From positions 15,896 to 79,895 of the forward strand of contig JBMORM010000014.1 in the NCBI GenBank assembly GCA_049322675.1: a DNA stretch of 64,000 nucleotides, written 5' to 3'. The position numbers and the translations under genes are program-made. Below are positions 2,379-58,372 of this stretch, piece after piece. The DNA is from Patescibacteria group bacterium (GTDB lineage: Bacteria; Patescibacteriota; JAHJAL01). The notes under the pieces are model-generated. The model had not been told where the DNA came from and did not search any database. It saw only the letters and a list, made by a program, of their open reading frames with translations. The first letter of the stretch is position 1. The number at the start of each line of letters is the position of its first letter.

Positions 2379-3515
2379 TTTTCCCTTCTTTTTTAGCCTA
2401 ATTAATATTTATTAAGATCAGTCTATCAATTTAAATTTTCAATTTCCAATTCTCAATTCTCTAATAAAGCAAATTAATTATCGAAAATTACGTCAGTATT
2501 TATTTGAAAATTGGGCATTGGGAATTTTTTGAAAATTGAAAATTGGAAATTGAAAATTGCCTCATGGGCATAAAAATAAGACCGCTGGCAAATGCGCCCT
2601 TCTTTATTAAAAAAATTTGGCGGCCTAGCGGTCTCATTGACCTCTTCGTAGCCTCCTTAACCCTTAACACAATGGTTGAAAGCTAGGGATAACTATATGA
2701 AAAGGCGTCTTTTTATCTTCCCTGCCGGTTAAATAAAAAGAAATTTTCAAACTGTTCTTCCGGCTTCCATGATACATCTCCAAAATCAAAACATAATTAT
2801 TATATTTGTCAAGGCAAGAAGATTCAAAACCCCACAAATATTTTTTGATTTCCAAGATGTACCATGGTTGCCCGCTCATCCGAAAATGAACCAGGTAGGC
2901 AGGTACCTTTCACCGAACAGTAAGAAAATCTAAAAACTAAGATTTTTGTTTTTGTTTTTTTGTCCTACCTCGTCGAAAGTCCATATTTATAAATAATTGG
3001 ACGACTTGGTAAAACATTTAGCCCCCTATATAAAAGATAGAAGACCTTCTCTTAGTTCTTAGATTCTCTTACCATTGCGGTGCTTTTTTTCGAACAGTTA
3101 TAAATTGTTAAAGTTTTATTTTTCTTTTGTTGTTTCTTTTGTCTGTTTTTTTGTTTTCATTACAATATAACAAACCATGTAAAATAAGTCAATAATATCT
3201 ATCAAACATAAAAAGAAAAACAACTTGAAAATTATCTCTGGGTGAGAAAAAACACAAAATAATATTCAAAAAAATAATCCAAGTTTTCCACAAGAACAAA
3301 ATATATACTTCCCCAAAAAAAATTTCGGTTTGACTTATTTTTTTATGACTGTTAAAATTAAAATAATCTTTTCAATCCAGGCGGCAAAATTATTAAAGAT
3401 TTAATCTTGCTCACCACATCAAAAATCAGTTCGTGACTATTTTTTAATTAAACCTCTTAAGATAATAAGAGTACATTATTATTTTTTTGTACTCGAAAAA
3501 TGGGGAGTTATTTTT
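2379..3515. other. 1.1-kb noncoding region upstream of rpoB with heptad repeat arrays and long imperfect hairpins
   Basis: No ORF of 60 aa or more on either strand; GAAAATT/GGAAATT arrays at 2429-2462 and 2531-2558; 10-bp stem GACCGCTGGC/GGCGGCCTAGCGGTC around 2590-2640; extended imperfect inverted repeat 2915-3090 ending GCGGTGCTTTTTTT; hairpin GAGTACA..TGTACTC plus GGGGAG immediately before the rpoB ATG. Confidence 0.5.
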
Positions 3516-6500
3516 ATGGCAAAAAAAATTAATCCTCCTGGACCATCCGATGTCCAACGAGTTTATTTTGGTAGTAGAAGACAATGGATCGATTTACCCG
3601 ATCTAAATACCATGCAAATAAACTCTTACAATTGGTTCTTTCAGGAAGGATTGCGTGAATTATTCGACGAAATCACTCCAATCGATGATTTCACCGGCAA
3701 AACCTTGTCTCTACAATTTGGCGATTACTATCTAGACCAACCAAAACATGATGAACACGCCTGTCGTGAAAGAAATTTTACCTACAAATCTGCCCTACGT
3801 TGTCAGGTTTCTCTTATCAATAAAGAAACCGGCGAGATTAAAGAGCAAGAAGTTTTCATGGGTGATTTTCCGCTCATGACTTCATCCGGTAGTTTTATTA
3901 TTAACGGTATCGAAAGAGTAGTCGTTTCACAGATAATCCGTTCACCAGGCGTTCTTTTTACATCTGAACGTTCGGCCGGTATCGAATATTTTGGCGCAAA
4001 AATTATTCCTGATCGCGGAGCTTGGTTGGAATTGGAAACCAACAATAAAAACATCATCTATGTCAAAATTGACCGCAAACGAAAAATACCCGTTACCACT
4101 CTTTTGCGTGCTTTTGGTCTTTCTTCGGATCAAGAGATAATCGATACCTTTAAAGATGTAAATAATAATCCCGATCGTAATTATATTAATGCTACTTTGA
4201 CCAAAGATCCCGCTGACAACACTCAAGAAGGTCTGTTGGAAGTGTATAAGAGAATCAGACCCGGAGATTTGGCTACGGCCGAAAATGCTCAGACACTGAT
4301 CGAAGATATGTTTTTCAATTTTCGCCGCTATGATTTTGGCAAAGTTGGACGCTACAAAATCAACAAACGCCTAGAATTGGATATTCCTCAGGACAAACAA
4401 CATCGCACTATCACTCTCAAAGATTTGGTGGCTGTAGTTAAAGAAGTTATTAATCTCAATAATATCGGCGGTCCTGCTGACGATATCGATAATCTCAAAA
4501 ACCGTCGTGTTCGTTCAGTCGGCGAATTGGCTCAAAAAGCCTTGCGAGTCGGTTTGTTGCGTATGGAAAGAATCGTAAAAGATCGTATGAGTGTTTCCGA
4601 CATCAATACAGTTACTCCTTCCGCCCTGATCAATGTTCGTCCACTTACCGCCGCTTTACAAGAATTTTTTGCCAGCTCTCAATTCTCTCATTTTATGGAT
4701 CAAACCAATCCCCTGGCTGAACTAGAAAACAAACGCCGTATTACCGCTATGGGTCCCGGTGGTCTATCCAGAGAAAGAGCCGGCTTTGAAGTACGCGACG
4801 TTCATCATTCGCACTATGGTCGCCTCTGTCCGATTGAAACTCCTGAAGGCTCCAATATTGGTCTCGTCAGTCATTTGGCATGTTTTGCTTCTATCAACGA
4901 ATATGGATTCATTGTTACTCCCTATCATCCAGTCATTAGAGAACTGGAAAATAAGGCCGATCTTATTTATGGTCAAATCACCCGTGGCGACATTGTCGAT
5001 CCCAAAAATGAAAAAGTAGTCGTGCCTGACAATACCAAAATCACCAAAGAACTGGCCGCAAAAATTTCCAAACTTGATTTATCCAAGATACCGATCAAAC
5101 CACAAGTAAAACAAGAAGTATTATACCTAGATGCCCAAGAAGAAGAAAACTTTGTTATTGCTCAAGCCGATATCTTGTTGGATGAAGAAAATCGTTTCGT
5201 TGATGACATAATTGCGGCTAGAGCCAAAGGTGAACCTGATTATGTTCCCCAAGAACAAATCGACTACATAAGCGTTTCTCCCAAACAAATTTTTTCTGTG
5301 GCTACTTCCCTAATTCCGTTTGTAGAAAATGATGAAGGTGTGCGCGCTTCAATGGGATCAAACATGTTGCGACAAGCTGTCAGCCTTGTTAAACCTCAAA
5401 CCCCGGTTGTCGGCACCGGTATCGAAGAAAAAGCCGCTTTGGATTCGGGTGAAATAGTTGTCGCCGAAGATGACGGAGAAGTAATTTCCGCGGCCGGAAA
5501 CGAATTGACTCTTCAGTACAAAAACAAACAACTCAAAACATACCCTCTTCGCAAATTTGTTAAATCAAACCAAGGCACCTGCATCAATCAACGAATTGTA
5601 GTTGAAAAAGACGAAAAAGTTAAAAAAGGTCAACTGTTGGTTGACGGCACCTCAACTGATCATGGTGAATTGGCTTTAGGACAAAATATTATGGTCGCAT
5701 TTATGCCCTGGGGCGGCTACAACTTCCAAGATGCAGTTATTATTTCCGAGCGACTTGTTCATGAAGATCGTTATTCTTCAATTCATATCGAAACCCATTT
5801 GATCGAAGTTCGGGAAACCAAACTTGGCCCCGAAGTTATTACACGCGATATTCCCAATGTTGGTGAAGAAGCTCTAAAAAATCTGGACGGAGACGGTATT
5901 ATTCGTTTAGGCGCCGAAGTAACTACTGGCGATATTCTCGTTGGTAAAATCACTCCCAAAGGTGAAAGCGAATTAACCGCCGAAGAAAAACTCTTGCGAG
6001 CTATCTTTGGTGAAAAAGCGCGCGACGTCAAAGACACTTCCTTGCGACTACCTCATGGTGAACGTGGAAAAATAGTTAATATCAAAGTTTTTACCAGAGA
6101 TAAAGGTGATGAACTGGCAACTGGAGTTATTAAAGCCATCGAAGTTAGCGTTGCTCAACTCCGTAAAATTTCCGTTGGTGACAAAATGGCCGGTCGTCAC
6201 GGTAACAAAGGTGTCATTTCCCGAGTACTTCCAGTCGAAGATATGCCGTATATGCCTGACGGTACTCCTGTTGATATTATTCTCAACCCCCTTGGTGTTA
6301 TTTCACGTATCAATTTGGGTCAGGTCTTAGAAACTCACCTCGGTTGGGCTGCCAAAACTCTAGGTTACAAAGTAGCCTGTCCTGTATTTGAAGGGGCATC
6401 ATGGGAAGAAATAAAAAAAGAATTAATCAAAGCCGAATTACCCGGTTCCGGCAAAATAACTCTGTATGATGGTCGTAGCGGTGAAGCATTTGATCAAGAT

Positions 6501-6875: not shown

Positions 6876-6896
6876 TTCTGAAAGTTATAAAAAGTT

Positions 6897-6958
6897 ATAA
6901 AGTTGAAAATTATAAAGCACAGTATTGTCGATTCGTTTTATTGAATTTTCAACTTTAT
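6897..6958. repeat. perfect 15-bp AT-rich inverted repeat (ATAAAGTTGAAAATT) forming a stem-loop between rpoB and rpoC
   Basis: 6897-6911 ATAAAGTTGAAAATT and 6944-6958 AATTTTCAACTTTAT are exact reverse complements separated by 32 nt; similar palindromes follow rpsL and fusA. Confidence 0.6.
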
Positions 6959-7022
6959 CGACCTTTTAACTTTTAAACTGAAGGTTATTAATATTTTAAT
7001 TATTAATTCTTAATTTATATAT

Positions 7023-11816: not shown

Positions 11817-12074
11817 TATTTATAATCTTCTTAAGTTCGTTTATTGACCTTTGTTGACTTGACTTATTTATTTATGCTAAATTAAGATAGCAATAAATAG
11901 AGATCAAATTTTTCAATTCTCAACTACTACTCCACATATTTGTCTTTTGCTCAATTTAAAAAGTAATGGCGTAACACTACGTCACTAATTTATTGAATTT
12001 ATTATTTAGTTCCAAGTTTTTAATTCTCAATTATTCAATATTGAAAATTAAAAATTGAAAATTAAATTTTATAA

Positions 12075-12494
12075 ATGCCCACAATCAATCAGCTTATCAA
12101 AAATCGCACTTCTCGCCGTCAGAAATATAAAAAAAGTAAAACTCCGGCACTGGCCAAAGGATTTAACTCTTTGAAAAACCGTTCCGTAGAGTATCAAAGT
12201 CCATTCAAGCGTGGCTTCTGTCTCAAAGTACACACCATGACACCAAAAAAACCAAACTCAGCTTTGCGCAAAGTCGCCCGCGTACGTTTAACCAATGGCA
12301 TGGAAGTTACTGCCTATATTCCCGGAGAAGGCCACAATCTGCAGGAACATTCAGTAGTCATACTTCGTGGCGGACGTGTCAAAGATCTTCCCGGAGTGCG
12401 CTATCATGTTGTCCGCGGCAAACTCGACACAGGTGGAGTCAACGATCGTAAACAAAGCCGCAGCAAATACGGCGCCAAAAAACCAAAGAAATAA
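12075..12494 (+). CDS. rpsL: 30S ribosomal protein S12
   Basis: [10 protein letters not shown]...[19 protein letters not shown], classic S12. Confidence 0.96.
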
Positions 12495-12504
12495 ATAGTT
12501 ACAA

Positions 12505-12578
12505 GTTTTCAAGTTATGAAGTTGAAAGTTAAAAAGAAGAATCTTTATAACTTTACAAACTTTCCAACTTTCAAATAC
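12505..12578. repeat. AT-rich palindromic repeat (GTTGAAAGTT family) downstream of rpsL
   Basis: AGTTATGAAGTTGAAAGTT ... AACTTTACAAACTTTCCAACTTTCAA arranged as an imperfect inverted repeat. Confidence 0.5.
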
Positions 12579-12622
12579 ATCGTTCATTGTTAATTATTAA
12601 TTATTAATTTAAATTATCCCCC

Positions 12623-13263: not shown

Positions 13264-15345
13264 ATGAGAGATTATATTTTAGAGAAAGTGCGCAACATCG
13301 GAACTATCGCCCATATTGATGCCGGTAAAACCACTGTTACCGAGGGTATCTTGTATATCACCGGTCGCATTCATAAAATCGGCGAAGTACACCAGGGTGA
13401 AACACAAATGGATTGGATGGAACAAGAAAAAGAACGTGGCATCACTATTACTTCTGCCGCCACTACCTGCTTTTGGAAAGATCATCGCATCAATATTATT
13501 GATACGCCTGGCCACGTTGATTTTACTGCCGAAGTCGAACGATCCCTTCGCGTGCTTGACGGAGCGGTTGTTATTTTTGATGGCAAAATGGGAGTCGAAC
13601 CTCAATCCGAAACGGTTTGGCGCCAAGCTGATAAATATCATGTTCCGCGTATTTGTTTTGTCAATAAAATAAATCAAACCGGTGGCGATTTCTATGCTTC
13701 CCTAAATTCTATCCGCGAACGTCTTAGCGCCAATGCATATCCAATCGCTCTACCGATTGGTTTTGAGAAAGAGATCAATGGCGTCGTGGATTTGGTTGAG
13801 TTAAAATCGTACACCTACAAAGATTACACAGATAAAGAGTTGACGATTGGAGAAGTTCCGGCTGATATGGCTGACAAAGTTAAACAATACCGCCAAGAAT
13901 TGATGGAAAAAGTTGTCGAAGCTGACGACGCCCTGATGGCCAAATATCTTGAAACCGGCGAATTGACTACCGAAGAATTCAAATCGGCTATTCGCAAAAG
14001 CGTTATCAGCGGAAATTTCTTCGCCATCATGGGCGGTGACGGTCGTGGCGTTATTGTCAATAAATTACTCGATGCCATCGTGGACTATTTACCGAGCCCG
14101 CTTGATCTTCCTCCTGTTGAAGGCCAATTACTTGATTCTGACGAAAAAATTTCTATCTCTCCCAATGATACCGATCCTTTTGCTGCTCTCGCTTTCAAAA
14201 TTGCCACTGATCCTTTTGTGGGTCGTCTTTGTTTTATTCGTGTTTATACCGGTGTTCTGCAGGCCGGCAGTTATATTCTAAATTCTTCCACGGGTAAAAA
14301 AGAAAGAGTCGGTCGTATCGTTCGCCTACACGCCAACAAAAGAGAAGATATAGATTCCGTCTATTCCGGTGAGATTGCCGCCATCGTAGGCATCAAAGAT
14401 ACTACAACCGGCGATACCGTCTGTGACGAAAAGAGACCTCTTACTCTCGAAAAAATTACCTTCCCCGAACCAGTCATCCGTGTCGCTATCGAACCAAAAA
14501 CCAAAGCCGACCAAGACAAACTAGGTATTGCTTTAGTTAAACTAGCCGAAGAAGATCCAACCTTCCGCATCAATACCGATGAAGAAACCGGTCAAACTAT
14601 TATCGCCGGTATGGGAGAGCTTCATTTGGAAATTATCGTTGATCGTTTGCGCCGGGAATTCAAAGTAGAAGCCAATGTTGGCGCACCCCAAGTCGCCTTC
14701 CGTGAAAGTATCAAAAAATCAGTTGAACAAGAAGGTAAATTTATCCGTCAATCAGGCGGTCGTGGTCAATACGGTCACGTTTATCTTCGACTGGAACCGC
14801 TTGAGCCCGGCAAAGGTTTTGAATTTGAAAATGCTATTGTCGGCGGAGTTGTTCCCAAAGAATATATATCAGCCGTTGAAAAAGGAGTCGTTGAAGCTTG
14901 CAATCGTGGCGTTTTGGCCGGATATCCTGTTGTTGACGTCAAAGTTACCATTTTTGATGGTTCCTACCACGAAGTTGACTCTTCAGAAATGGCTTTCAAA
15001 GTCGCCGGTTCCATGGCCCTACAAGATGGTGTCCGAAAAGCTGATCCTGTCATTCTCGAACCAATTATGTCTGTTGAAGTTATTACCCCCGAAGATTTCA
15101 TGGGCGATGTAATGGGTGATCTCAACTCCAAACGTGGGCAAATCACCAGTATGACTGACCGTTCGCAAGCCAAAGTTGTTGCCGCCAAAGTACCTCTTTC
15201 CGAAATGTTTGGATATGCCACTACTTTACGTTCCATGACTCAAGGTCGTGCTTTCTTTACTATGGAACCTTCACATTATGCCGAAGTCCCACGCAATATC
15301 GCCGACGAAATAATCAGCAAACGTTCTCCCGCCCCGCAGAAATAA
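13264..15345 (+). CDS. fusA: elongation factor G
   Basis: [17 protein letters not shown], full EF-G domain series; 693 aa. Confidence 0.96.
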
Positions 15346-15351
15346 TTTGAG

Positions 15352-15465
15352 TTTACAAAGTTGAAAGTTATTAAGTCAGATGCTTATATAGTTTCAAATT
15401 TTTATACATTCACGTTTCGTCTCCAACTTCACAACTTGATAACTTTACAACTTTCAACTAATATC
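15352..15465. repeat. AT-rich palindromic repeat pair (AGTTGAAAGTT) downstream of fusA
   Basis: GTTTACAAAGTTGAAAGTTATTAAG ... CTTGATAACTTTACAACTTTCAAC form an inverted repeat with ~50 nt between the arms. Confidence 0.5.
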
Positions 15466-16896: not shown

Positions 16897-17052
16897 TCTC
16901 TCTTGTAAGTTTGATTGCTTAAAGGGGAGGAATGTAATCTTTTACCTTCTTCCCCTCTTGTTGCCTCTATGCAAATATTTAAAATCTAAAATTATAACTC
17001 ACATCATAGTTGTAATTTTATATTTTACATTTTTGTCTTAACAAATAAAGCC

Positions 17053-31396: not shown

Positions 31397-31499
31397 CCCT
31401 CACGGGACCGAACTGCTGCTGGCAATGACCAATTTTCAAACAAATTCAATTCTAGGATCATTCTTTTTTGTATTTGTTTGGAAATTGAGCCTTTTTTGG
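31397..31499 (-). repeat. dispersed intergenic element, copy 1 (short form), with conserved ends shared with 62839-63142
   Basis: 31397-31426 CCCTCACGGGACCGAACTGCTGCTGGCAAT is the exact reverse complement of 63113-63142; 31478-31499 TTGGAAATTGAGCCTTTTTTGG is the exact reverse complement of 62839-62860; flanked by heptad arrays at 31352-31392 and 31500-31560. Confidence 0.6.
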
Positions 31500-31564
31500 A
31501 AATTGAGAATTGGAAATTGGAAATTATCAATTCATTCTTAATTATTAATTGTTAATTAATTATT

Positions 31565-32146: not shown

Positions 32147-32175
32147 GACAATTTCCAGTTTCCAATTTCCAGTTT

Positions 32176-32197
32176 CCAAAAAATGTCCAATTTCCAA
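32176..32197 (+). repeat. partial third copy of the left-end motif of the dispersed element (CCAAAAAATGTCCAATTTCCAA)
   Basis: Differs from CCAAAAAAGGCTCAATTTCCAA at three positions; embedded in the heptad arrays between adkA and map. Confidence 0.4.
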
Positions 32198-32308
32198 TTC
32201 TCAATGGATGCGATCCGTTTGGAAATTGTGTCTTGGAAATTCATTGGAAATTATACCGTTGTTTACAAAAATGAATATATTTTTTTGTTCCCAATTTACA
32301 TTATTCCA

Positions 32309-33591: not shown

Positions 33592-33600
33592 CTTTTTAAA

Positions 33601-33689
33601 TTTCCAATTTCCAATAATCAATTTCCAATAAATTTTCCATTGTCCCAACAAAATATCATTTGGAAATTGAAAATTGAAAATTGAAAATT
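33601..33689. repeat. inverted pair of heptad arrays (AATTTCC x3 ... GGAAATT/GAAAATT x4) flanking a 27-nt spacer between rpmJ and rpsM
   Basis: 33601-33634 AAATTTCCAATTTCCAATAATCAATTTCCAATAA; 33662-33689 GGAAATTGAAAATTGAAAATTGAAAATT. Confidence 0.65.
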
Positions 33690-33709
33690 TATATTTAATT
33701 TTTACGAAC

Positions 33710-34093
33710 ATGGCTCGTATTTCCGGCGTTCAAATCCCAACTGAAAAAAGAGTAGAAATTGCTCTTACGTATATTTATGGCATAGGCTTAACCAGCAGCC
33801 AGAAAATTCTCAAAATTGCCAATATCAGTCCTGACACCAGAGTCAAAGATCTAACCAATGAACAATTGGACAAAATTCGTGAAATAATCGACAAAAATCA
33901 CCTGGTCGAAGGCGTTCTTAGACAAAAAATTTCTACCAATATCAAACGACTCAAAGAAATTGGTTCCTACCGAGGCGATCGACACAACCGTCGCTTACCC
34001 CTACGTGGTCAACGTACTCGCACCAATGCCCGTACTCGCCGCGGTCGCAAAATGACTGTCGCCACTTCCAAAAAAGCCCCGACCAAGACCTAG
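33710..34093 (+). CDS. rpsM: 30S ribosomal protein S13
   Basis: [26 protein letters not shown]...; ATG at 33710; the ORF-track TTG at 33674 lies in the repeat array. Confidence 0.95.
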
Positions 34094-34099
34094 TATAAA

Positions 34100-34198
34100 A
34101 TTTCCAATTTCCAGTTTTCAATTTCCAAATCTATAACCAAATTATCCGTATATCCCCTCAAAGTATGTTTGAAAATTGTGAATTGAAAATTGGAAATT
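34100..34198. repeat. inverted pair of heptad arrays flanking a 41-nt spacer between rpsM and rpsK
   Basis: 34100-34128 AATTTCCAATTTCCAGTTTTCAATTTCC; 34170-34198 GAAAATTGTGAATTGAAAATTGGAAATT. Confidence 0.65.
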
Positions 34199-55372: not shown

Positions 55373-56809
55373 ATGCCCCTATCTATAGAAGAGAAAAAAA
55401 ACACCGATAACACTTCCCGGCCAGAAACCGGAAGTATGTCATATAATCTATATGGGGAAGAAAAGGATATTTCAGGAGCAATAGATAATAATCCAATCGA
55501 TTTTTTTCAATATTATAAAAGCATATTTGAGATAGAAACCGGGCAAACATTTGATGACCAATTATGGCTGAAAAAAACCAAAGAAATAAAATACGCGTAT
55601 AATTTAATCCAAAAAAATATAAATTTAGATGTTAAACAATCGGAAATTAATAACCTCTTTCTCAAGACAGCAGGCGAAATAAAGGAAATTTTTCATCTGG
55701 AAACATACGACCGCAACCAAAATATTCCATTGGGTGTTTCTGAAATAATGAATAGATTTGATCGGTTAAAAATACCTGAAAAATCTCACCTTTTGTATTG
55801 TCGAGATTTTATGAAAGATATATTCTCTGCCTCCAATATTATTGTAGATAAATATGGAAGCAATCATCCCTTTCGTCGAGCTACTAGATCAATCATTAAC
55901 CACTGCTTGCCCGATATCAAATACATTGATCCAGCAACTGGTCTGGATATTAGTTTGGACAATTATTTTGACGAAAGAAATAGAATTGATTCGGGTTTGG
56001 CCCGTTCTAATCCAAATTTTTTAAAATCAATACTAGAAGGAGATCCAAAACTGATAAATAATCCCGAATATTCCAAATATCTTAATGCTCTTGCCAACAT
56101 CTTGAAAAAAATTAACCAGTCCTATGACATAGGTTATATTCAGACATTAACTGTTGAATTTTCCCAATCGCATCACAACGAATTGACCACCAAAGAACCG
56201 GAAAAAAGGCATGAAATGAAAGAAAATGAATTAGGTAAAATTGATGAGATTATGAATTATCTTTGTTCTAGTCATGATTTAAAAGAATTTACCCTCGCCA
56301 ACAAGGAAAAACTGAATGGTATTATTCATATGATAAATCAGAAACACAGTATTATCGGTCCTAGTGACAAAATTTTCAGTCCAATATCAACGACATTCAA
56401 TAAAGACAACCCGTTGATAAGTAAGGAAATAATTGAAAAGATCATTGGTGAAATTAGTTTTTCTGAATTAAATCAAAAAGTTGGTGAATTTCAAGGGGTA
56501 ATCAAATCATTTGTTTCCGAACTTGATCCAAATTCTGACCTCAAATTTATTGATTTGCCGGCAAAGAATCCAAATGAAAAAGCAGAAATTGTTTCTGAAC
56601 TTGCTCAATTGCAAAAAAACATCGATCAAGAATTTTCTCAAGATGATATAACCGCAAAAAAAGTAAAATATATTTTACTTTATGATTATATTTTGCTTAA
56701 ATTTACCGATTCTTTGAACAAGTCTTCTGAATTTAATCAAGAACAAACCATTCAACCTGAAGAAATTTTTTCACACGAAACTGTTGATTCGGAAAAACTA
56801 GCCGCCTAA
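55373..56809 (+). CDS. hypothetical protein (478 aa)
   Basis: ORF only; 4-nt overlap with the convergent gene 56806..57720. Confidence 0.5.
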   Translation: MPLSIEEKKNTDNTSRPETGSMSYNLYGEEKDISGAIDNNPIDFFQYYKSIFEIETGQTFDDQLWLKKTKEIKYAYNLIQKNINLDVKQSEINNLFLKTAGEIKEIFHLETYDRNQNIPLGVSEIMNRFDRLKIPEKSHLLYCRDFMKDIFSASNIIVDKYGSNHPFRRATRSIINHCLPDIKYIDPATGLDISLDNYFDERNRIDSGLARSNPNFLKSILEGDPKLINNPEYSKYLNALANILKKINQSYDIGYIQTLTVEFSQSHHNELTTKEPEKRHEMKENELGKIDEIMNYLCSSHDLKEFTLANKEKLNGIIHMINQKHSIIGPSDKIFSPISTTFNKDNPLISKEIIEKIIGEISFSELNQKVGEFQGVIKSFVSELDPNSDLKFIDLPAKNPNEKAEIVSELAQLQKNIDQEFSQDDITAKKVKYILLYDYILLKFTDSLNKSSEFNQEQTIQPEEIFSHETVDSEKLAA

Positions 56810-57720
56810 TCAATCGTTTCCACCATCTCCCGCCACTTCTCCGCATATTCTCCTCTCTTTCCCTCCGGATGGAATTTCAAAATATTTTTTGAAGCCATGG
56901 CTCCGTCGATATTGTCGACTGGGGTCTTTTTTTTGATCTTTTTCAGTTGTGATTTTTCCAGAAACATTTCTACCAAATCACCAAGCCAACCGGACAATAT
57001 TATTTCCCCCAACTTACCCCACCAATTTGGCTTATCAGTGTTCAATAGAGGATTGATCATCTTGGTATTGGGAATAAATTTTTCCACCCATTTATTTTTC
57101 CGCCAGAAATTCTCCGCCACTTTCATATCGGTCCCATAAATCGGCCGAAGCCATTTGAGCCAGTACATTAGATAAATATCATTTTCGTCTATCAACAGTT
57201 TTCGAAAATTTATGTAATTTTCGGTAACGTAAAAACTCAGACAAAACCGGTTGGCGACGTTTTTGCCGTGCCGCCATTTTCCCAAAAGAAACATCCAGCC
57301 AGTCAAAATAACCCGTGTAGTAAACAAGCGGTTCTTTTTGGTTATCACCAGCAAATCAATATCCCCATTTTCTTTGGCGTTACTAAACCCCAATGTATTA
57401 CTCACTCCCACCAGCTTAATAAACGGCACGAGCCGAAAAACCCAGCGATATTTCTCCACCATCCGCCATTTGTGGTAGGAAAATAAATATCTCTTTTTTC
57501 TTATATTAAACAGCTCTCCCCGCCCTGCCAGACAATAAAAACCATCGGCAAAATCTATTTTATTTTCTTCGCGCAAAACATCAATTGTTTTCAAACAATC
57601 ATTTAAATCGCATTTAACCCCCCACAAATTGTCAAAAATTTCCATATTGGTCAGCGGAAATTCAAACAAATCATAGAAAGCCAAGGTGGCGAGGATGGAG
57701 TTTTTGATGGGGGTTATCAA
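56806..57720 (-). CDS. hypothetical protein with a possible minimal nucleotidyltransferase-like signature
   Basis: LVGVSNTLGFSNAKENGDIDLLVI fits hG[GS]x9-13 Dh[DE]h loosely; TTG start at 57720, alternative Met 25 codons downstream. Confidence 0.4.
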   Translation of the reverse strand: MITPIKNSILATLAFYDLFEFPLTNMEIFDNLWGVKCDLNDCLKTIDVLREENKIDFADGFYCLAGRGELFNIRKKRYLFSYHKWRMVEKYRWVFRLVPFIKLVGVSNTLGFSNAKENGDIDLLVITKKNRLFTTRVILTGWMFLLGKWRHGKNVANRFCLSFYVTENYINFRKLLIDENDIYLMYWLKWLRPIYGTDMKVAENFWRKNKWVEKFIPNTKMINPLLNTDKPNWWGKLGEIILSGWLGDLVEMFLEKSQLKKIKKKTPVDNIDGAMASKNILKFHPEGKRGEYAEKWREMVETID

Positions 57721-57726
57721 GTTTAA

Positions 57727-57790
57727 AAGTTATCAAGTTATAAAGTGAGAACGTTTTAACGTATAAACGTATGAACGTTCATGCATTTAT
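57727..57790. repeat. left arm of an imperfect inverted repeat bracketing the four-helix-bundle gene
   Basis: AAGTTATCAAGTTATAAAGTG (57727-57747), then GAGAACGTTTTAACGTATAAACGTATGAACGTTCATGC; pairs with 58275-58359. Confidence 0.6.
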
Positions 57791-57802
57791 ACGTTTATAC
57801 TT

Positions 57803-58174
57803 TTATATATTCTTTCTTAAAACCTTAATAAGACATGCGATCATTGAAGAAATTTTCTCGCACTTATCTTTGATTATTACAAAATCATTAGTTTTAATAT
57901 ATAACAATTTGTTGGCAAGATATAATTGTGTTTTAAGCTCCGAGCATGAACCCTTCGATATGTACAAAAATCTTACAAACTCTTTCTTGGTCCCTCTTTC
58001 AAAACCTTCTGCAATATTACTTGGGATAGATACTGCTGCTCTTTGCATTTGTTGTATTAGTCCATAATCATTTCTAAATAAATACTTATTATTAGTTTGT
58101 TGATAAATCACTTCAACCAAAATCATACTTTCTTGCCATACTTTTATCTCTTCTACTTTTTTAAAAAAATTCAT
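57803..58174 (-). CDS. four-helix-bundle protein of the '23S rRNA intervening sequence protein' family (TIGR02436/PF05635-like)
   Basis: QMQRAAVSIPSNIAEGFERGTKKEFVRFLYISKGSCSELKTQLYLANKL matches the family signature A.SI.SNIAEG..R....E...FL.IA.GS..E; 123 aa. Confidence 0.8.
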   Translation of the reverse strand: MNFFKKVEEIKVWQESMILVEVIYQQTNNKYLFRNDYGLIQQMQRAAVSIPSNIAEGFERGTKKEFVRFLYISKGSCSELKTQLYLANKLLYIKTNDFVIIKDKCEKISSMIACLIKVLRKNI

Positions 58175-58274
58175 ATTATATTCTATTTACATTCTTGCTT
58201 TTATGCCCTTTACAAATTCAAACTAAATAATATCATTTGTTTATTAAAAAAAAATTAAGTAAAATTGAATCTAG

Positions 58275-58359
58275 GAGCGTATAGACGTGCAAACGTAAGA
58301 AAGTAAAAACGTTCCCACGTTCATACTTTCCCACTTTCCCTCCTTATAACTTTATAACT
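58275..58359. repeat. right arm of the inverted repeat bracketing the four-helix-bundle gene
   Basis: 58343-58359 CTTATAACTTTATAACT is the reverse complement of AGTTATAAAGTTATAAG (left arm AGTTATCAAGTTATAAAG); inner GGGAACGTTTTTAC/GTATGAACGT mirror the left-arm segments. Confidence 0.6.
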
Positions 58360-58372
58360 ATATAATTACTTC

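What the first reader, a model, noticed from the sequence alone, without database searches (positions are those of the whole stretch)
57727..58359. Four-helix-bundle ('23S rRNA IVS protein' family) gene as a cassette bracketed by long inverted repeats
The 123-aa ORF carries the diagnostic SIPSNIAEG..R....EFVRFLYISKGSCSELKTQL motif of the family first found inside 23S rRNA intervening sequences. Here it lies between two protein-coding genes and is flanked by ~65-85-bp imperfect inverted repeats (AAGTTATCAAGTTATAAAG...GAGAACGTTTTAAC..GTATGAACGT on the left; ...ACGTTCATAC..GGGAACGTTTTTAC..CTTATAACTTTATAACT mirrored on the right). This is the same architecture as an rRNA IVS (a long stem excised by RNase III), but in an mRNA context. 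It could be a mobile IVS-like cassette, or a module whose flanking stem directs transcript processing or insulation of the downstream epimerase operon.
Basis: partly seen in the sequence, partly recalled or inferred. Interest (0 to 1): 0.6.

Follow-up and report, generated by a model that had tools for sequence, protein, structure and literature searches.

The report
Hairpin-enclosed four-helix-bundle gene cassette
A small gene of the family first found inside ribosomal-RNA "intervening sequences" sits here between two ordinary genes, enclosed by a long hairpin built from tandem 8-base units; the same design surrounds most relatives of this gene across bacterial phyla, and I found no paper that describes it.

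Summary
ORF 57803-58174 (- strand, 123 aa) is a clear PF05635/TIGR02436 four-helix-bundle protein. It is bracketed by 80-nt inverted arms (57728-57807 and 58280-58359), far beyond chance.

1. The cassette is an acquisition. Orthologous loci in 89%- and 67%-identical relatives have the same epimerase and 30x-aa gene, separated by only a 131-136-nt spacer with no cassette. A 96% relative carries at least the cassette's 3' end (only 109 nt upstream of the gene are held).
2. The architecture is family-wide. Flanking inverted repeats surround 52 of 74 homologues in genomes and 41 of 58 in metagenomes, against 5 of 121 control ORFs. None of the 80 genome loci holds rRNA.
3. The arms are almost always tandem arrays of 7-9-nt units with a fixed polarity: the G-rich, AG-containing arm lies upstream on the coding strand. 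The cassettes usually lie co-oriented inside operons.

In the window the outer arm units (AAGTTATN) match ORF-less hairpins in the rpoBC and str operons. The inner units (AACGTnnn) match cassettes of two close protein relatives.

Best reading: an IVS-type, horizontally acquired cassette whose arms pair in RNA. RNase III cleavage and RNA binding by the protein are inferred, not shown.

The parts
57713..58366 (-). Whole cassette (about 654 nt). It fills essentially the entire spacer between the 304-aa gene (start at 57720) and the epimerase (ATG at 58373).
   Evidence: Orthologous spacers in relatives are only 131-136 nt and lack it.
58280..58359 (-). 5' arm on the coding strand: G-rich, AG/GT-containing 8-nt units, [AC]GTnnnAA about 10 times. 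The outer part, 58342-58359(-58366), has AAGTTATA-type units. The inner part, 58280-58341, has ACGT/AGTG-type units.
   Evidence: Inverted repeat I1; periodicity; pattern matches at 58342-58358 and 58350-58366.
58292..58337 (-). Local hairpin within the 5' arm (58292-58312 pairs with 58317-58337).
   Evidence: Inverted repeat I5; present in the folds.
58175..58279 (-). A/T-rich leader between the 5' arm and the ATG. No strong Shine-Dalgarno motif by eye. On the + strand it holds a promoter-like site (58209-58236) facing the epimerase.
   Evidence: consensus match only.
57803..58174 (-). Four-helix-bundle protein gene (PF05635 / TIGR02436), 123 aa, with all family-invariant residues intact.
57728..57807 (-). 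3' arm on the coding strand (C-rich, CT/AC-containing units). It overlaps the stop codon. The inner part, 57746-57807, has AACGTnnn units. The outer part, 57713-57745, has AAGTTATN units and includes the extra unit pair 57713-57728.
   Evidence: Inverted repeat I1 and direct repeat D7.
57730..57831 (-). Local hairpin formed by the 3' arm with the end of the ORF (57730-57775 pairs with 57786-57831; 46 nt, 74% complementary).
   Evidence: Inverted repeat I2; folds.
56806..57720 (-). Downstream, co-oriented 304-aa gene with no Pfam hit. Its TTG start lies inside the outer 3' arm, and its first ~10 codons differ from those of the orthologues at empty sites.
15345..15465 (+). ORF-less hairpin between fusA and tuf. 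It has the same outer units, and its loop aligns with the cassette's inner arm. Probably a miniature derivative of the same element type.
   Evidence: alignment score 37, z 6.4.
12495..12590 (+). ORF-less hairpin between rpsL and rpsG, made of AAGTTnnn units. The AG-type arm is 5' on the transcribed strand.
   Evidence: (z 6.0).
6880..6985 (+). ORF-less hairpin between rpoB and rpoC, made of AAGTTATA units. The AG-type arm is 5' on the transcribed strand.
   Evidence: (z 3.6-3.9).

Best explanation
This is an IVS-type gene cassette that the lineage acquired by insertion: a four-helix-bundle (PF05635) gene carried inside a long hairpin whose two arms are inverted arrays of a short tandem unit (8 nt here, 7 nt in most relatives).

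Shown:
- The arms are part of the element, recur around most family members outside rRNA, and have a fixed polarity relative to the ORF.
- The element is absent from the orthologous site of two relatives (89% and 67% identical in the neighbouring gene).
- Family members usually lie co-oriented between genes of an operon.

Inferred:
- The cassette is transcribed as part of the surrounding transcript.
- The G-rich 5' arm and the C-rich 3' arm pair into a double-stranded RNA stem of roughly 35-70 bp.
- RNase III cuts this stem, as shown experimentally for rRNA IVSs. This detaches the cassette RNA from the flanking RNA, so that insertion is tolerated in rRNA and in operons alike.
- The pentameric protein, a homologue of the RNA stem-loop-binding DGR protein Avd, acts on this structured RNA.

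In this locus the cassette replaced the native promoter-bearing spacer. It now sits at the head of the 304-aa gene, whose start codon lies in the outer arm. The mechanism of DNA-level spread is unknown.
For: Family assignment.

Stem.

Empty sites: L185-L187 (neighbour 89% identical) and L188-L189 (67%) have the epimerase and the 30x-aa gene 131-136 nt apart. That spacer is conserved between the two groups and absent from the window. L192 (96% identical) carries the same 3' end of the cassette: the last codons of the ORF and the 3' arm.

Family-wide inverted repeats: 52 of 74 genes have z >= 5, against 5 of 121 control ORFs in the same loci (Fisher p 8e-24). One of the five controls proved to be another PF05635 gene. 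Replicated in metagenomes: 41 of 58. None of the 80 genome loci holds rRNA.

Tandem-unit arms: 47 of 52 arms are periodic (period 7 in 35, 8 in 8, 9 in 4); 36 of 41 in the replicate.

Polarity: in the 5' arm on the coding strand, G exceeds C in 44 of 52 (p 1.5e-9) and in 38 against 3 in the replicate. AG occurs in the unit consensus in 34 of 45, CT in 5 of 45.

Orientation: co-oriented with both neighbours in 58 of 72, against 55 of 92 control gene triples (p 0.006); 44 of 56 in the replicate. Examples: sufB-IVP-sufC and cmr3-IVP-cmr2 (PMC3936711).

Arms travel with the gene: L098 and L101 (proteins 53% identical, different neighbours) use the same AACGTnnn 8-nt unit. The two closest pairs in the genome set (75% and 73% identical) share units.

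Experimental precedent: the Coxiella IVS has a 28-bp terminal stem cut by RNase III and tandem heptamers (GACAGAT) upstream of the ORF (PMC4990558). Avd binds RNA stem-loops (bioRxiv 10.1101/2023.10.23.563531).
Against: No RNA data exist for this organism, so cleavage is pure inference.

Mismatches in the arms show no excess of G.U-compatible changes on the coding strand (57 against 65). There is therefore no sequence signature of selection on RNA pairing as opposed to DNA-level symmetry.

At this locus the upstream neighbour is divergent. A transcript containing the 5' arm would have to start within 13 nt of the epimerase ATG or inside the epimerase gene. The only candidate is a consensus-level promoter match at 58569-58540 on the - strand.

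The closest protein relative (P0002, 58% identical) has arms of a different unit. Overall, unit similarity barely tracks protein similarity (rho 0.08, permutation p about 0.1).

The insertion replaced the spacer rather than leaving clean junctions, so no target-site features could be read.

No enzyme for mobility is encoded.
Confidence: 0.55

Rival explanations
1. DNA-level element. The inverted tandem arrays are recombination or transposition ends, or single-stranded-DNA hairpins, used by an enzyme supplied in trans. This would resemble MITEs, REP/RAYT 'REPtrons' or integron attC sites. RNA pairing would be incidental.
For: Presence/absence polymorphism between close relatives. ORF-less hairpins with the same units occur elsewhere in the genome. 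No G.U strand bias in arm mismatches. Further arrays of the cassette's own unit lie 1.1-1.3 kb away in L075. A truncated IVP fragment abuts the next cassette's 5' arm in L091.
Against: No transposase, integrase or Y1 enzyme was found among the neighbours tested. No target-site duplication is visible. The strong polarity relative to the ORF and the co-orientation with host operons are explained more simply by transcription. Arm units differ between cassettes 1.5 kb apart in one genome, which is awkward for a single trans-acting enzyme that recognises the ends.
Confidence: 0.2
2. Autoregulatory RNA-protein module. The pentameric protein binds the periodic AG-containing units of the single-stranded 5' arm, as the ring proteins TRAP and HutP bind spaced triplets. 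Binding would control stem formation, translation of its own ORF or expression of the gene downstream. This is not exclusive of the best explanation.
For: Fixed period (7 nt in about 70% of arms) and a strand-specific AG (AGT, AGG, AGA) in 34 of 45 unit consensuses. The 5' arm often ends within 10 nt of the ATG. The solved homologue 2GSC holds five identical chains and is described as a homopentamer (PMC4990558). Its homologue Avd binds RNA stem-loops. The TRAP and HutP binding modes are quoted from established knowledge.
Against: Unit sequences vary widely while the protein's polar core is invariant. There is no significant correlation between protein and unit similarity. No binding data exist. 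In Coxiella the protein appears not to be made (PMC4990558).
Confidence: 0.2
3. Host-generic intergenic hairpins. The genome is full of tandem-unit hairpins that act as terminators, attenuators or processing sites, and the gene merely lies between two of them. On this view there is no cassette.
For: Many spacers in the window carry such hairpins: 2434-2558, 6880-6985, 12495-12590, 15345-15465, 31358-31535, 33597-33691 and 34098-34198. Arms of neighbouring hairpins also bracket ordinary genes such as S13 at 33674-34093. The outer arm units are of the host type.
Against: The inner arms are specific to the cassette and shared with relatives' cassettes in other contexts. The whole unit is absent from orthologous sites. 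The same architecture recurs around about 70% of homologues in unrelated phyla, against 4% of control ORFs. Tandem arrays are 8 times denser next to these genes than elsewhere in the same loci.
Confidence: 0.05

Closest known systems
ORF-bearing intervening sequences (IVS) of 23S rRNA (Leptospira, Coxiella burnetii, Brucella, Xanthomonas; Ralph & McClelland 1993; Warrier et al. 2016, PMC4990558)
   Same: The same protein family lies in the loop. Terminal inverted repeats form a long stem. Tandem short repeats (GACAGAT heptamers in Coxiella) lie upstream of the ORF on the coding strand. Distribution among relatives is sporadic.
   Different: This cassette is not in rRNA: it lies between protein genes, at the head of a transcription unit. 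Excision by RNase III is unproven here. The arms are longer (80 nt against a 28-bp stem) and composite.
Over-represented intergenic heptamer repeats: GGGAATC in Xanthomonas, with 70-75 convergent inverted pairs (Rehm et al. 2015, PMC4692102); TAACTGA in Beggiatoaceae, cyanobacteria and Bacteroidetes (MacGregor 2015, PMC4679880); cyanobacterial STRR heptamers (Mazel et al. 1990, from memory)
   Same: Tandem 7-nt units in spacers, often just upstream of start codons, sometimes as convergent pairs able to form stem-loops. Function unknown.
   Different: In the passages I searched by keyword, those papers draw no link to PF05635 genes. Here the arrays enclose such a gene, have a polarity tied to it, and the unit is 8 nt.
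REP/RAYT 'REPtrons' and REPINs
   Same: A single gene is flanked by inverted hairpin-forming repeats, with ORF-less copies of the hairpins dispersed in spacers of the same genome.
   Different: The gene is a four-helix bundle, not a Y1 (IS200-like) transposase. The arms are tandem arrays rather than a conserved 20-40-nt palindrome.
Avd, accessory protein of diversity-generating retroelements (PDB 4DWL)
   Same: Homologous pentameric four-helix-bundle protein. It binds RNA stem-loops, and DGR RNA also needs pairing between segments upstream and downstream of the template.
   Different: No reverse transcriptase was found in any of the 14 large ORFs tested between 49.9 and 63.7 kb. No direct repeat of 40 nt or more (which could be a template/variable pair) lies within 52-64 kb.
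Integron gene cassettes (attC)
   Same: A small, often promoterless ORF co-oriented with its neighbours, bounded by imperfect inverted repeats and variable between strains.
   Different: The arms lie on both sides of the ORF and pair with each other across it. There is no attC-like single 3' site, and no integrase among the neighbours examined.

Membership tests
PF05635 / TIGR02436 four-helix-bundle ('23S rRNA IVS') protein | Profile match above the curated cut-off over the full domain | tested here: met
   Pfam 124.7 bits against 33.8, profile positions 1-104 of 106. TIGR02436 119.5 bits against 24.
PF05635 / TIGR02436 four-helix-bundle ('23S rRNA IVS') protein | Conserved polar motif (R..SIPSNIAEG ... 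GS..E) | tested here: met
   All 13 invariant columns of a 37-sequence alignment are present in the window protein.
PF05635 / TIGR02436 four-helix-bundle ('23S rRNA IVS') protein | Four-helix-bundle fold assembling into a pentamer | not tested
   Only sequence homology to the solved structure 2GSC (E 7e-21). No structure prediction was run.
23S rRNA intervening sequence (IVS) | Located within a 23S rRNA gene (helix 25 or 45) | tested here: not met
   No Rfam family reaches its gathering score anywhere in the window. The flanks are protein genes.
23S rRNA intervening sequence (IVS) | Terminal inverted repeats forming a long stem that encloses the element | tested here: met
23S rRNA intervening sequence (IVS) | Excised from the transcript by RNase III without religation | not testable with these tools
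   Needs RNA end mapping. No rnc gene or RNA data are available for this MAG within the window.
23S rRNA intervening sequence (IVS) | Sporadic presence among close relatives | tested here: met
   Its 3' end is present in the 96% relative (L192). The cassette is absent at the same site in the 89% and 67% relatives.
Diversity-generating retroelement (Avd role) | Adjacent reverse transcriptase and a template/variable repeat pair | tested here: not met
   No reverse-transcriptase domain in the 14 large ORFs tested between 49.9 and 63.7 kb. No direct repeat of 40 nt or more in 52-64 kb.
REP/RAYT REPtron | The enclosed gene is a Y1 (IS200/IS605-like) transposase | tested here: not met
   The enclosed gene hits only PF05635.
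MITE / TIR transposon | Terminal inverted repeats bounded by a target-site duplication | tested here: inconclusive
   Inverted repeats are present. No flanking direct repeat was seen by eye. The native spacer was replaced, so the junctions cannot be reconstructed.
Integron cassette | A single attC site 3' of the ORF, and an intI integrase at the array head | tested here: not met
   The arms flank the ORF on both sides. No integrase among the neighbours tested. The whole window was not screened for intI.
Intergenic tandem heptamer repeats (SSR class of Rehm 2015 / MacGregor 2015) | Head-to-tail short units (about 7 nt) in spacers, often as convergent pairs | tested here: met
   8-nt units in the window. 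7-nt units in 35 of 47 periodic arms of homologues.

The most novel reading that the evidence does not exclude
rRNA intervening sequences are only the best-known instance of one widespread class of selfish cassette, made of a PF05635 gene and inverted tandem-heptamer arms. These cassettes insert between genes of operons in most bacterial phyla. They would be tolerated because the arms form a stem that is cut out at the RNA level. The puzzling over-represented intergenic heptamer repeats and hairpins (STRR, GGGAATC, TAACTGA; here the AAGTTATN hairpins in the rpoBC and str operons) would be their ORF-less derivatives. The pentameric protein would recognise the periodic AG-containing units.
Probability: 0.3. 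Interest if true: 0.85.

Novelty: new variant of a known kind. Interest (0 to 1): 0.7.

Why it matters
The function of IVS proteins and the origin of rRNA intervening sequences have been open since the early 1990s. So has the reason why 7-nt tandem repeats are over-represented in bacterial spacers.

The rules found here are simple and countable:
- an ORF enclosed by inverted tandem arrays;
- period mostly 7 nt;
- the AG/G-rich arm upstream on the coding strand;
- co-orientation inside operons;
- presence/absence between close relatives.

These rules tie the two puzzles together. They make them testable in cultivable hosts: Riemerella, Nostoc and, in principle, Xanthomonas, whose own loci I could not check. 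Suitable tests are an rnc mutant, RNA end mapping and binding assays.

If the RNA-excision model holds, these cassettes would be a general way for a gene to ride inside foreign operons at little cost.

Tried and rejected
- DGR remnant: rejected. No reverse transcriptase among the 14 large ORFs tested between 49.9 and 63.7 kb, and no template/variable-type direct repeats in 52-64 kb.
- Other copies of the gene in the window: none by tblastn.
- Rfam: nothing in the window, and only a tRNA fragment in the 80 homologous loci. No described RNA family covers the arms.
- tRNA search: none.
- Strand test for RNA-level selection (G.U-compatible mismatches on the coding against the opposite strand): 57 against 65, no signal.
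- Co-variation of unit sequence with protein sequence: rho 0.08, permutation p about 0.1. Only the closest pairs share units.
- Phage collection: no homologue. PHROGs: no hit.
- PADLOC: one weak hit to a '2TM effector' model (E 8e-4), disregarded.
- Plasmids: 23 records, mostly cyanobacterial megaplasmids. The Riemerella 'plasmids' look chromosomal (lepA, Fe-S genes). They were not usable for an empty-site comparison.
- 'Insulator for the epimerase operon': rejected on gene orientation.
- Epimerase C-terminal extension as a decayed fused cassette: a weak, colinear profile match only (E 7e-4, probability 26%). Orthologues have the same length, so it is at best ancient.
- Literature: seven searches of the held library found no paper that links PF05635 genes outside rRNA to flanking inverted tandem repeats. 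Subscription journals are not covered, so a prior description cannot be excluded.
Full report
WHAT IS THERE

The window is 38% G+C. It carries rpoB, rpoC, rpsL, rpsG, fusA, tuf and the ribosomal-protein operons. The exact protein of the finding is recorded from a 'Patescibacteria group bacterium' MAG, and the same genome was found in one Logan assembly.

ORF 57803..58174 on the minus strand encodes 123 aa. It matches PF05635 (E 2.2e-36), TIGR02436 (E 7e-35) and the solved protein XCC0516, PDB 2GSC (E 7e-21). It retains every invariant column of an alignment of 37 homologues.

The ORF is bracketed by inverted arms at 57728-57807 and 58280-58359: 80 nt, 73% complementary. This is the longest inverted repeat in the window.
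- Flank-against-flank alignment gives z = 11.4.
- The arms close the minimum-free-energy fold on either strand.
- Co-folding the arms gives -58.6 kcal/mol against -32.9 +/- 3.7 for shuffles.

One correction: the cassette gene is antisense to the window's + strand. The 304-aa gene (56806-57720) lies downstream of it, and the epimerase (58373-59629) is divergent.

ANATOMY OF THE ARMS

The arms are tandem arrays of 8-nt units. Lag-8 self-identity is 0.69 in the left spacer. On the coding strand the 5' arm reads roughly [AC]GTnnnAA ten times.

The arms are composite.
- The outer 17-33 nt on each side (57713-57745 and 58342-58366) are AAGTTATN units. These recur in three ORF-less hairpins in the same window: rpoB/rpoC spacer 6880-6985, rpsL/rpsG spacer 12495-12590, and fusA/tuf spacer 15345-15465.
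- The inner parts are AACGTnnn-type units.
- The fusA/tuf hairpin aligns with the cassette's arm through the outer units and into the inner part (score 37, z 6.4). It looks like a miniature, ORF-less version of the same element.
- In all three ORF-less hairpins the AG-containing arm is 5' on the transcribed strand, as in the cassette.

THE CASSETTE IS AN ACQUISITION

Orthologues of the 304-aa neighbour exist in related Patescibacteria.
- In the 89%-identical relative (L185-L187) and the 67%-identical one (L188-L189), the gene sits next to the same divergent ~420-aa epimerase. The spacer is only 131-136 nt and holds no PF05635 gene and no AAGTTATN hairpin.
- That spacer is recognisably conserved between these two more distant genomes. 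In the window the whole 652-nt spacer is the cassette instead, and the first ~10 codons of the 304-aa gene differ: its TTG start lies in the outer arm.
- A 96%-identical relative from another sample (L192) carries the same 3' end of the cassette: the last codons of the ORF and the 3' arm.
- Parsimony therefore places a gain after the split from the 89% lineage. The gain replaced the native promoter region.

THE ARCHITECTURE IS FAMILY-WIDE

I fetched 80 loci with homologues from species-representative genomes of many phyla. For each I aligned 300 nt upstream against the reverse complement of 300 nt downstream.
- 52 of 74 testable genes have an inverted repeat with z >= 5 (39 with z >= 8). Only 5 of 121 other ORFs in the same loci do (Fisher p 8e-24). 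One of those five 'controls' proved to be a second PF05635 gene.
- None of the 80 loci contains rRNA.
- An independent set of 80 metagenome loci gave 41 of 58.

In 47 of the 52 positive loci the arms are tandem arrays. The period is 7 in 35, 8 in 8 and 9 in 4. The replicate gave 36 of 41, with periods 7, 8 and 9 in 25, 8 and 3.

Unit sequences differ from locus to locus, even between two cassettes 1.5 kb apart in one genome. Polarity, however, is fixed.
- In the arm upstream on the coding strand, G exceeds C in 44 of 52 (p 1.5e-9) and in 38 against 3 in the replicate.
- The unit consensus contains AG in 34 of 45 cassettes and CT in 5 of 45.
- Tandem arrays are eight times denser next to these genes than elsewhere in the same loci (0.93 against 0.115 per kb).

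The cassettes are wedged 20-130 nt from their neighbours. They are co-oriented with both neighbours in 58 of 72 cases, against 55 of 92 control gene triples (p 0.006), and in 44 of 56 in the replicate.

Examples:
- sufB-IVP-sufC, with GCAGATT arms.
- A marine population in which IVP cassettes alternate with toxin-antitoxin pairs upstream of an epimerase. Strains lack or gain blocks, and a truncated IVP fragment abuts the next cassette's 5' arm.
- An earlier report of these genes between cmr3 and cmr2 (PMC3936711).

DO THE ARMS BELONG TO THE GENE OR TO THE HOST?

Both, it seems.
- Two close relatives of the window protein (P0006 and P0004, 53% identical) lie between a PMT_2-like gene and murJ. 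Their arms are made of the same AACGTnnn 8-nt unit as the window's inner arms.
- The two most similar protein pairs in the genome set share units.
- The closest relative, P0002 (58% identical), uses a different unit. Overall the correlation between unit similarity and protein similarity is weak (rho 0.08, p about 0.1).
- The outer units in the window are of the type found in the host's own ORF-less hairpins.
- A cassette-specific inner stem nested in a host-type outer stem is what insertion into the loop of an existing hairpin would give. That is the way IVSs sit in helix loops of 23S rRNA. This reading is an inference from one locus.

MECHANISM

Shown: the element is a unit made of the ORF and polarised inverted arrays. 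It is gained and lost between close relatives, and it usually follows the direction of the host operon.

Inferred from established work on rRNA IVSs:
- The arms pair in the transcript and are cut by RNase III. In Coxiella a 28-bp terminal stem is cleaved by RNase III, and tandem GACAGAT heptamers lie upstream of the ORF (PMC4990558).
- The protein is a homologue of Avd, which binds RNA stem-loops and works on an RNA whose template is bracketed by paired upstream and downstream segments (bioRxiv 10.1101/2023.10.23.563531). An RNA-binding role at the arms is therefore plausible.

Against the RNA model:
- Arm mismatches show no strand bias towards G.U (57 against 65).
- At this locus no host gene reads into the 5' arm. 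A minus-strand transcript would need a start inside the epimerase gene, and only a consensus-level match exists at 58569-58540.

I put 0.55 on the IVS-type, RNA-processed acquired cassette. I put about 0.2 on a DNA-level recombination element and about 0.2 on an autoregulatory protein/periodic-RNA module, which could coexist with the first. I put 0.05 on mere host hairpins.

COMPARISON WITH KNOWN SYSTEMS

The closest known system is the ORF-bearing rRNA IVS. The protein family, the terminal stem, the upstream tandem repeats and the sporadic distribution are the same. The defining location in 23S rRNA is tested and not met, so I do not file it as an rRNA IVS.

It also overlaps with the over-represented intergenic heptamer repeats described in Xanthomonas, where 70-75 convergent pairs occur (PMC4692102), and in Beggiatoaceae, cyanobacteria and Bacteroidetes (PMC4679880). 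In the passages I searched by keyword, neither paper links them to PF05635 genes.

REP/RAYT, integron, MITE and DGR memberships each fail on a defining feature (see the membership table).

Seven searches of the held library found no description of this architecture outside rRNA. The library omits most subscription journals, so priority cannot be asserted.

CAVEATS

- ORF starts in the homologous loci were set by rule, so arm-to-ATG distances are approximate.
- The shuffles preserve mononucleotide content only. The control ORFs in the same loci are the main safeguard.
- The 160 loci are the best-scoring relatives of one query alignment, not a random sample of the family.
- The empty-site argument rests on two relatives, plus one carrier for which only the cassette's 3' end is held.

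VERDICT

The finding is real and more interesting than a single odd locus. It is a recently acquired member of what appears to be a general class: hairpin-enclosed PF05635 cassettes with tandem-unit arms. I found no published description of this class. Novelty: a new variant of a known kind. Interest: 0.7.

Noticed in passing
window 2434-2558, 31358-31535, 32147-32205, 33597-33691, 34098-34198: A second family of long spacer hairpins, built of 7-nt units AATTTCC/GGAAATT. Stems are 25-35 bp and loops 30-110 nt. They lie between genes of the ribosomal-protein operons and upstream of the gene at 903-2378. The C-containing arm is 5', the opposite polarity to the cassette arms.
   Followed up: partly
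window 11990-12075 and 16960-17045: Further A/T-rich spacer hairpins (before rpsL and after tuf) with 7-8-nt periodicity. They were not assigned to either unit family.
   Followed up: no
window 59336-59629 (C-terminus of the epimerase 58373-59629): The epimerase has a ~90-aa C-terminal extension beyond the usual end (…FVNWYKEYY). It aligns colinearly but weakly with the PF05635 alignment (hhalign E 7e-4, probability 26%) and lacks the SIPSNIAEG motif. Orthologues in L185 and L188 are also 420-421 aa. It may be an ancient fused, decayed cassette gene.
   Followed up: partly
window 59742-60569 and 60847-61746 (- strand): Two adjacent paralogous genes (275 and 299 aa, similar N-termini …ILRT[YF]ATK…) with no Pfam hit. 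They lie between the epimerase and the rmlD/rmlC genes. Related loci L188 and L001 have the same pair.
   Followed up: no
L185:1479-1609 and L188:4865-5000 (empty sites in relatives): The native spacer carries a solo tandem array just upstream of the 308-aa gene: AAATTGA about 4 times in L185, degenerate in L188. Tandem heptamers are therefore a lineage-wide spacer feature even without a cassette.
   Followed up: partly
L082-L091 (marine metagenome population, protein P0117): A variable block upstream of an epimerase: IVP, an MNT/HEPN-type pair, a RelB/ParE pair, then IVP. One strain (L088) lacks everything after the first IVP, and another (L085) has a third IVP. In L091 at about 3965-4090, an N-terminal IVP fragment ends at '…QLRRAA', directly against the next cassette's 5' arm.
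   Followed up: partly
L092/L093:3783-4469; L102:2405-2878: PF05635 cassettes sit inside iron-sulfur cluster operons of Bacteroidota: sufB-IVP-sufC (source-named Niabella sp.) and Fe-S accessory gene-IVP in Riemerella. In L092 the arms are composite, with outer AATTGAT units and inner GCAGATT units, as in the window.
   Followed up: partly
L075:1817-1875 and 4660-4712; L006:1997-2109 and 5766-5923: Further arrays of the cassette's own unit lie 1.1-1.3 kb on either side of the cassette (L075, CACGAAT/CACGAGT). ORF-less tandem-unit hairpins lie near a cassette in L006.
   Followed up: no
window 58373-63729 and homologous loci (L083, L098, L101, L190): PF05635 cassettes are repeatedly found at the edge of or inside polysaccharide and cell-envelope gene clusters: epimerases, rmlC/rmlD, murJ, PMT_2-like genes and glycosyltransferases.
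   Followed up: no
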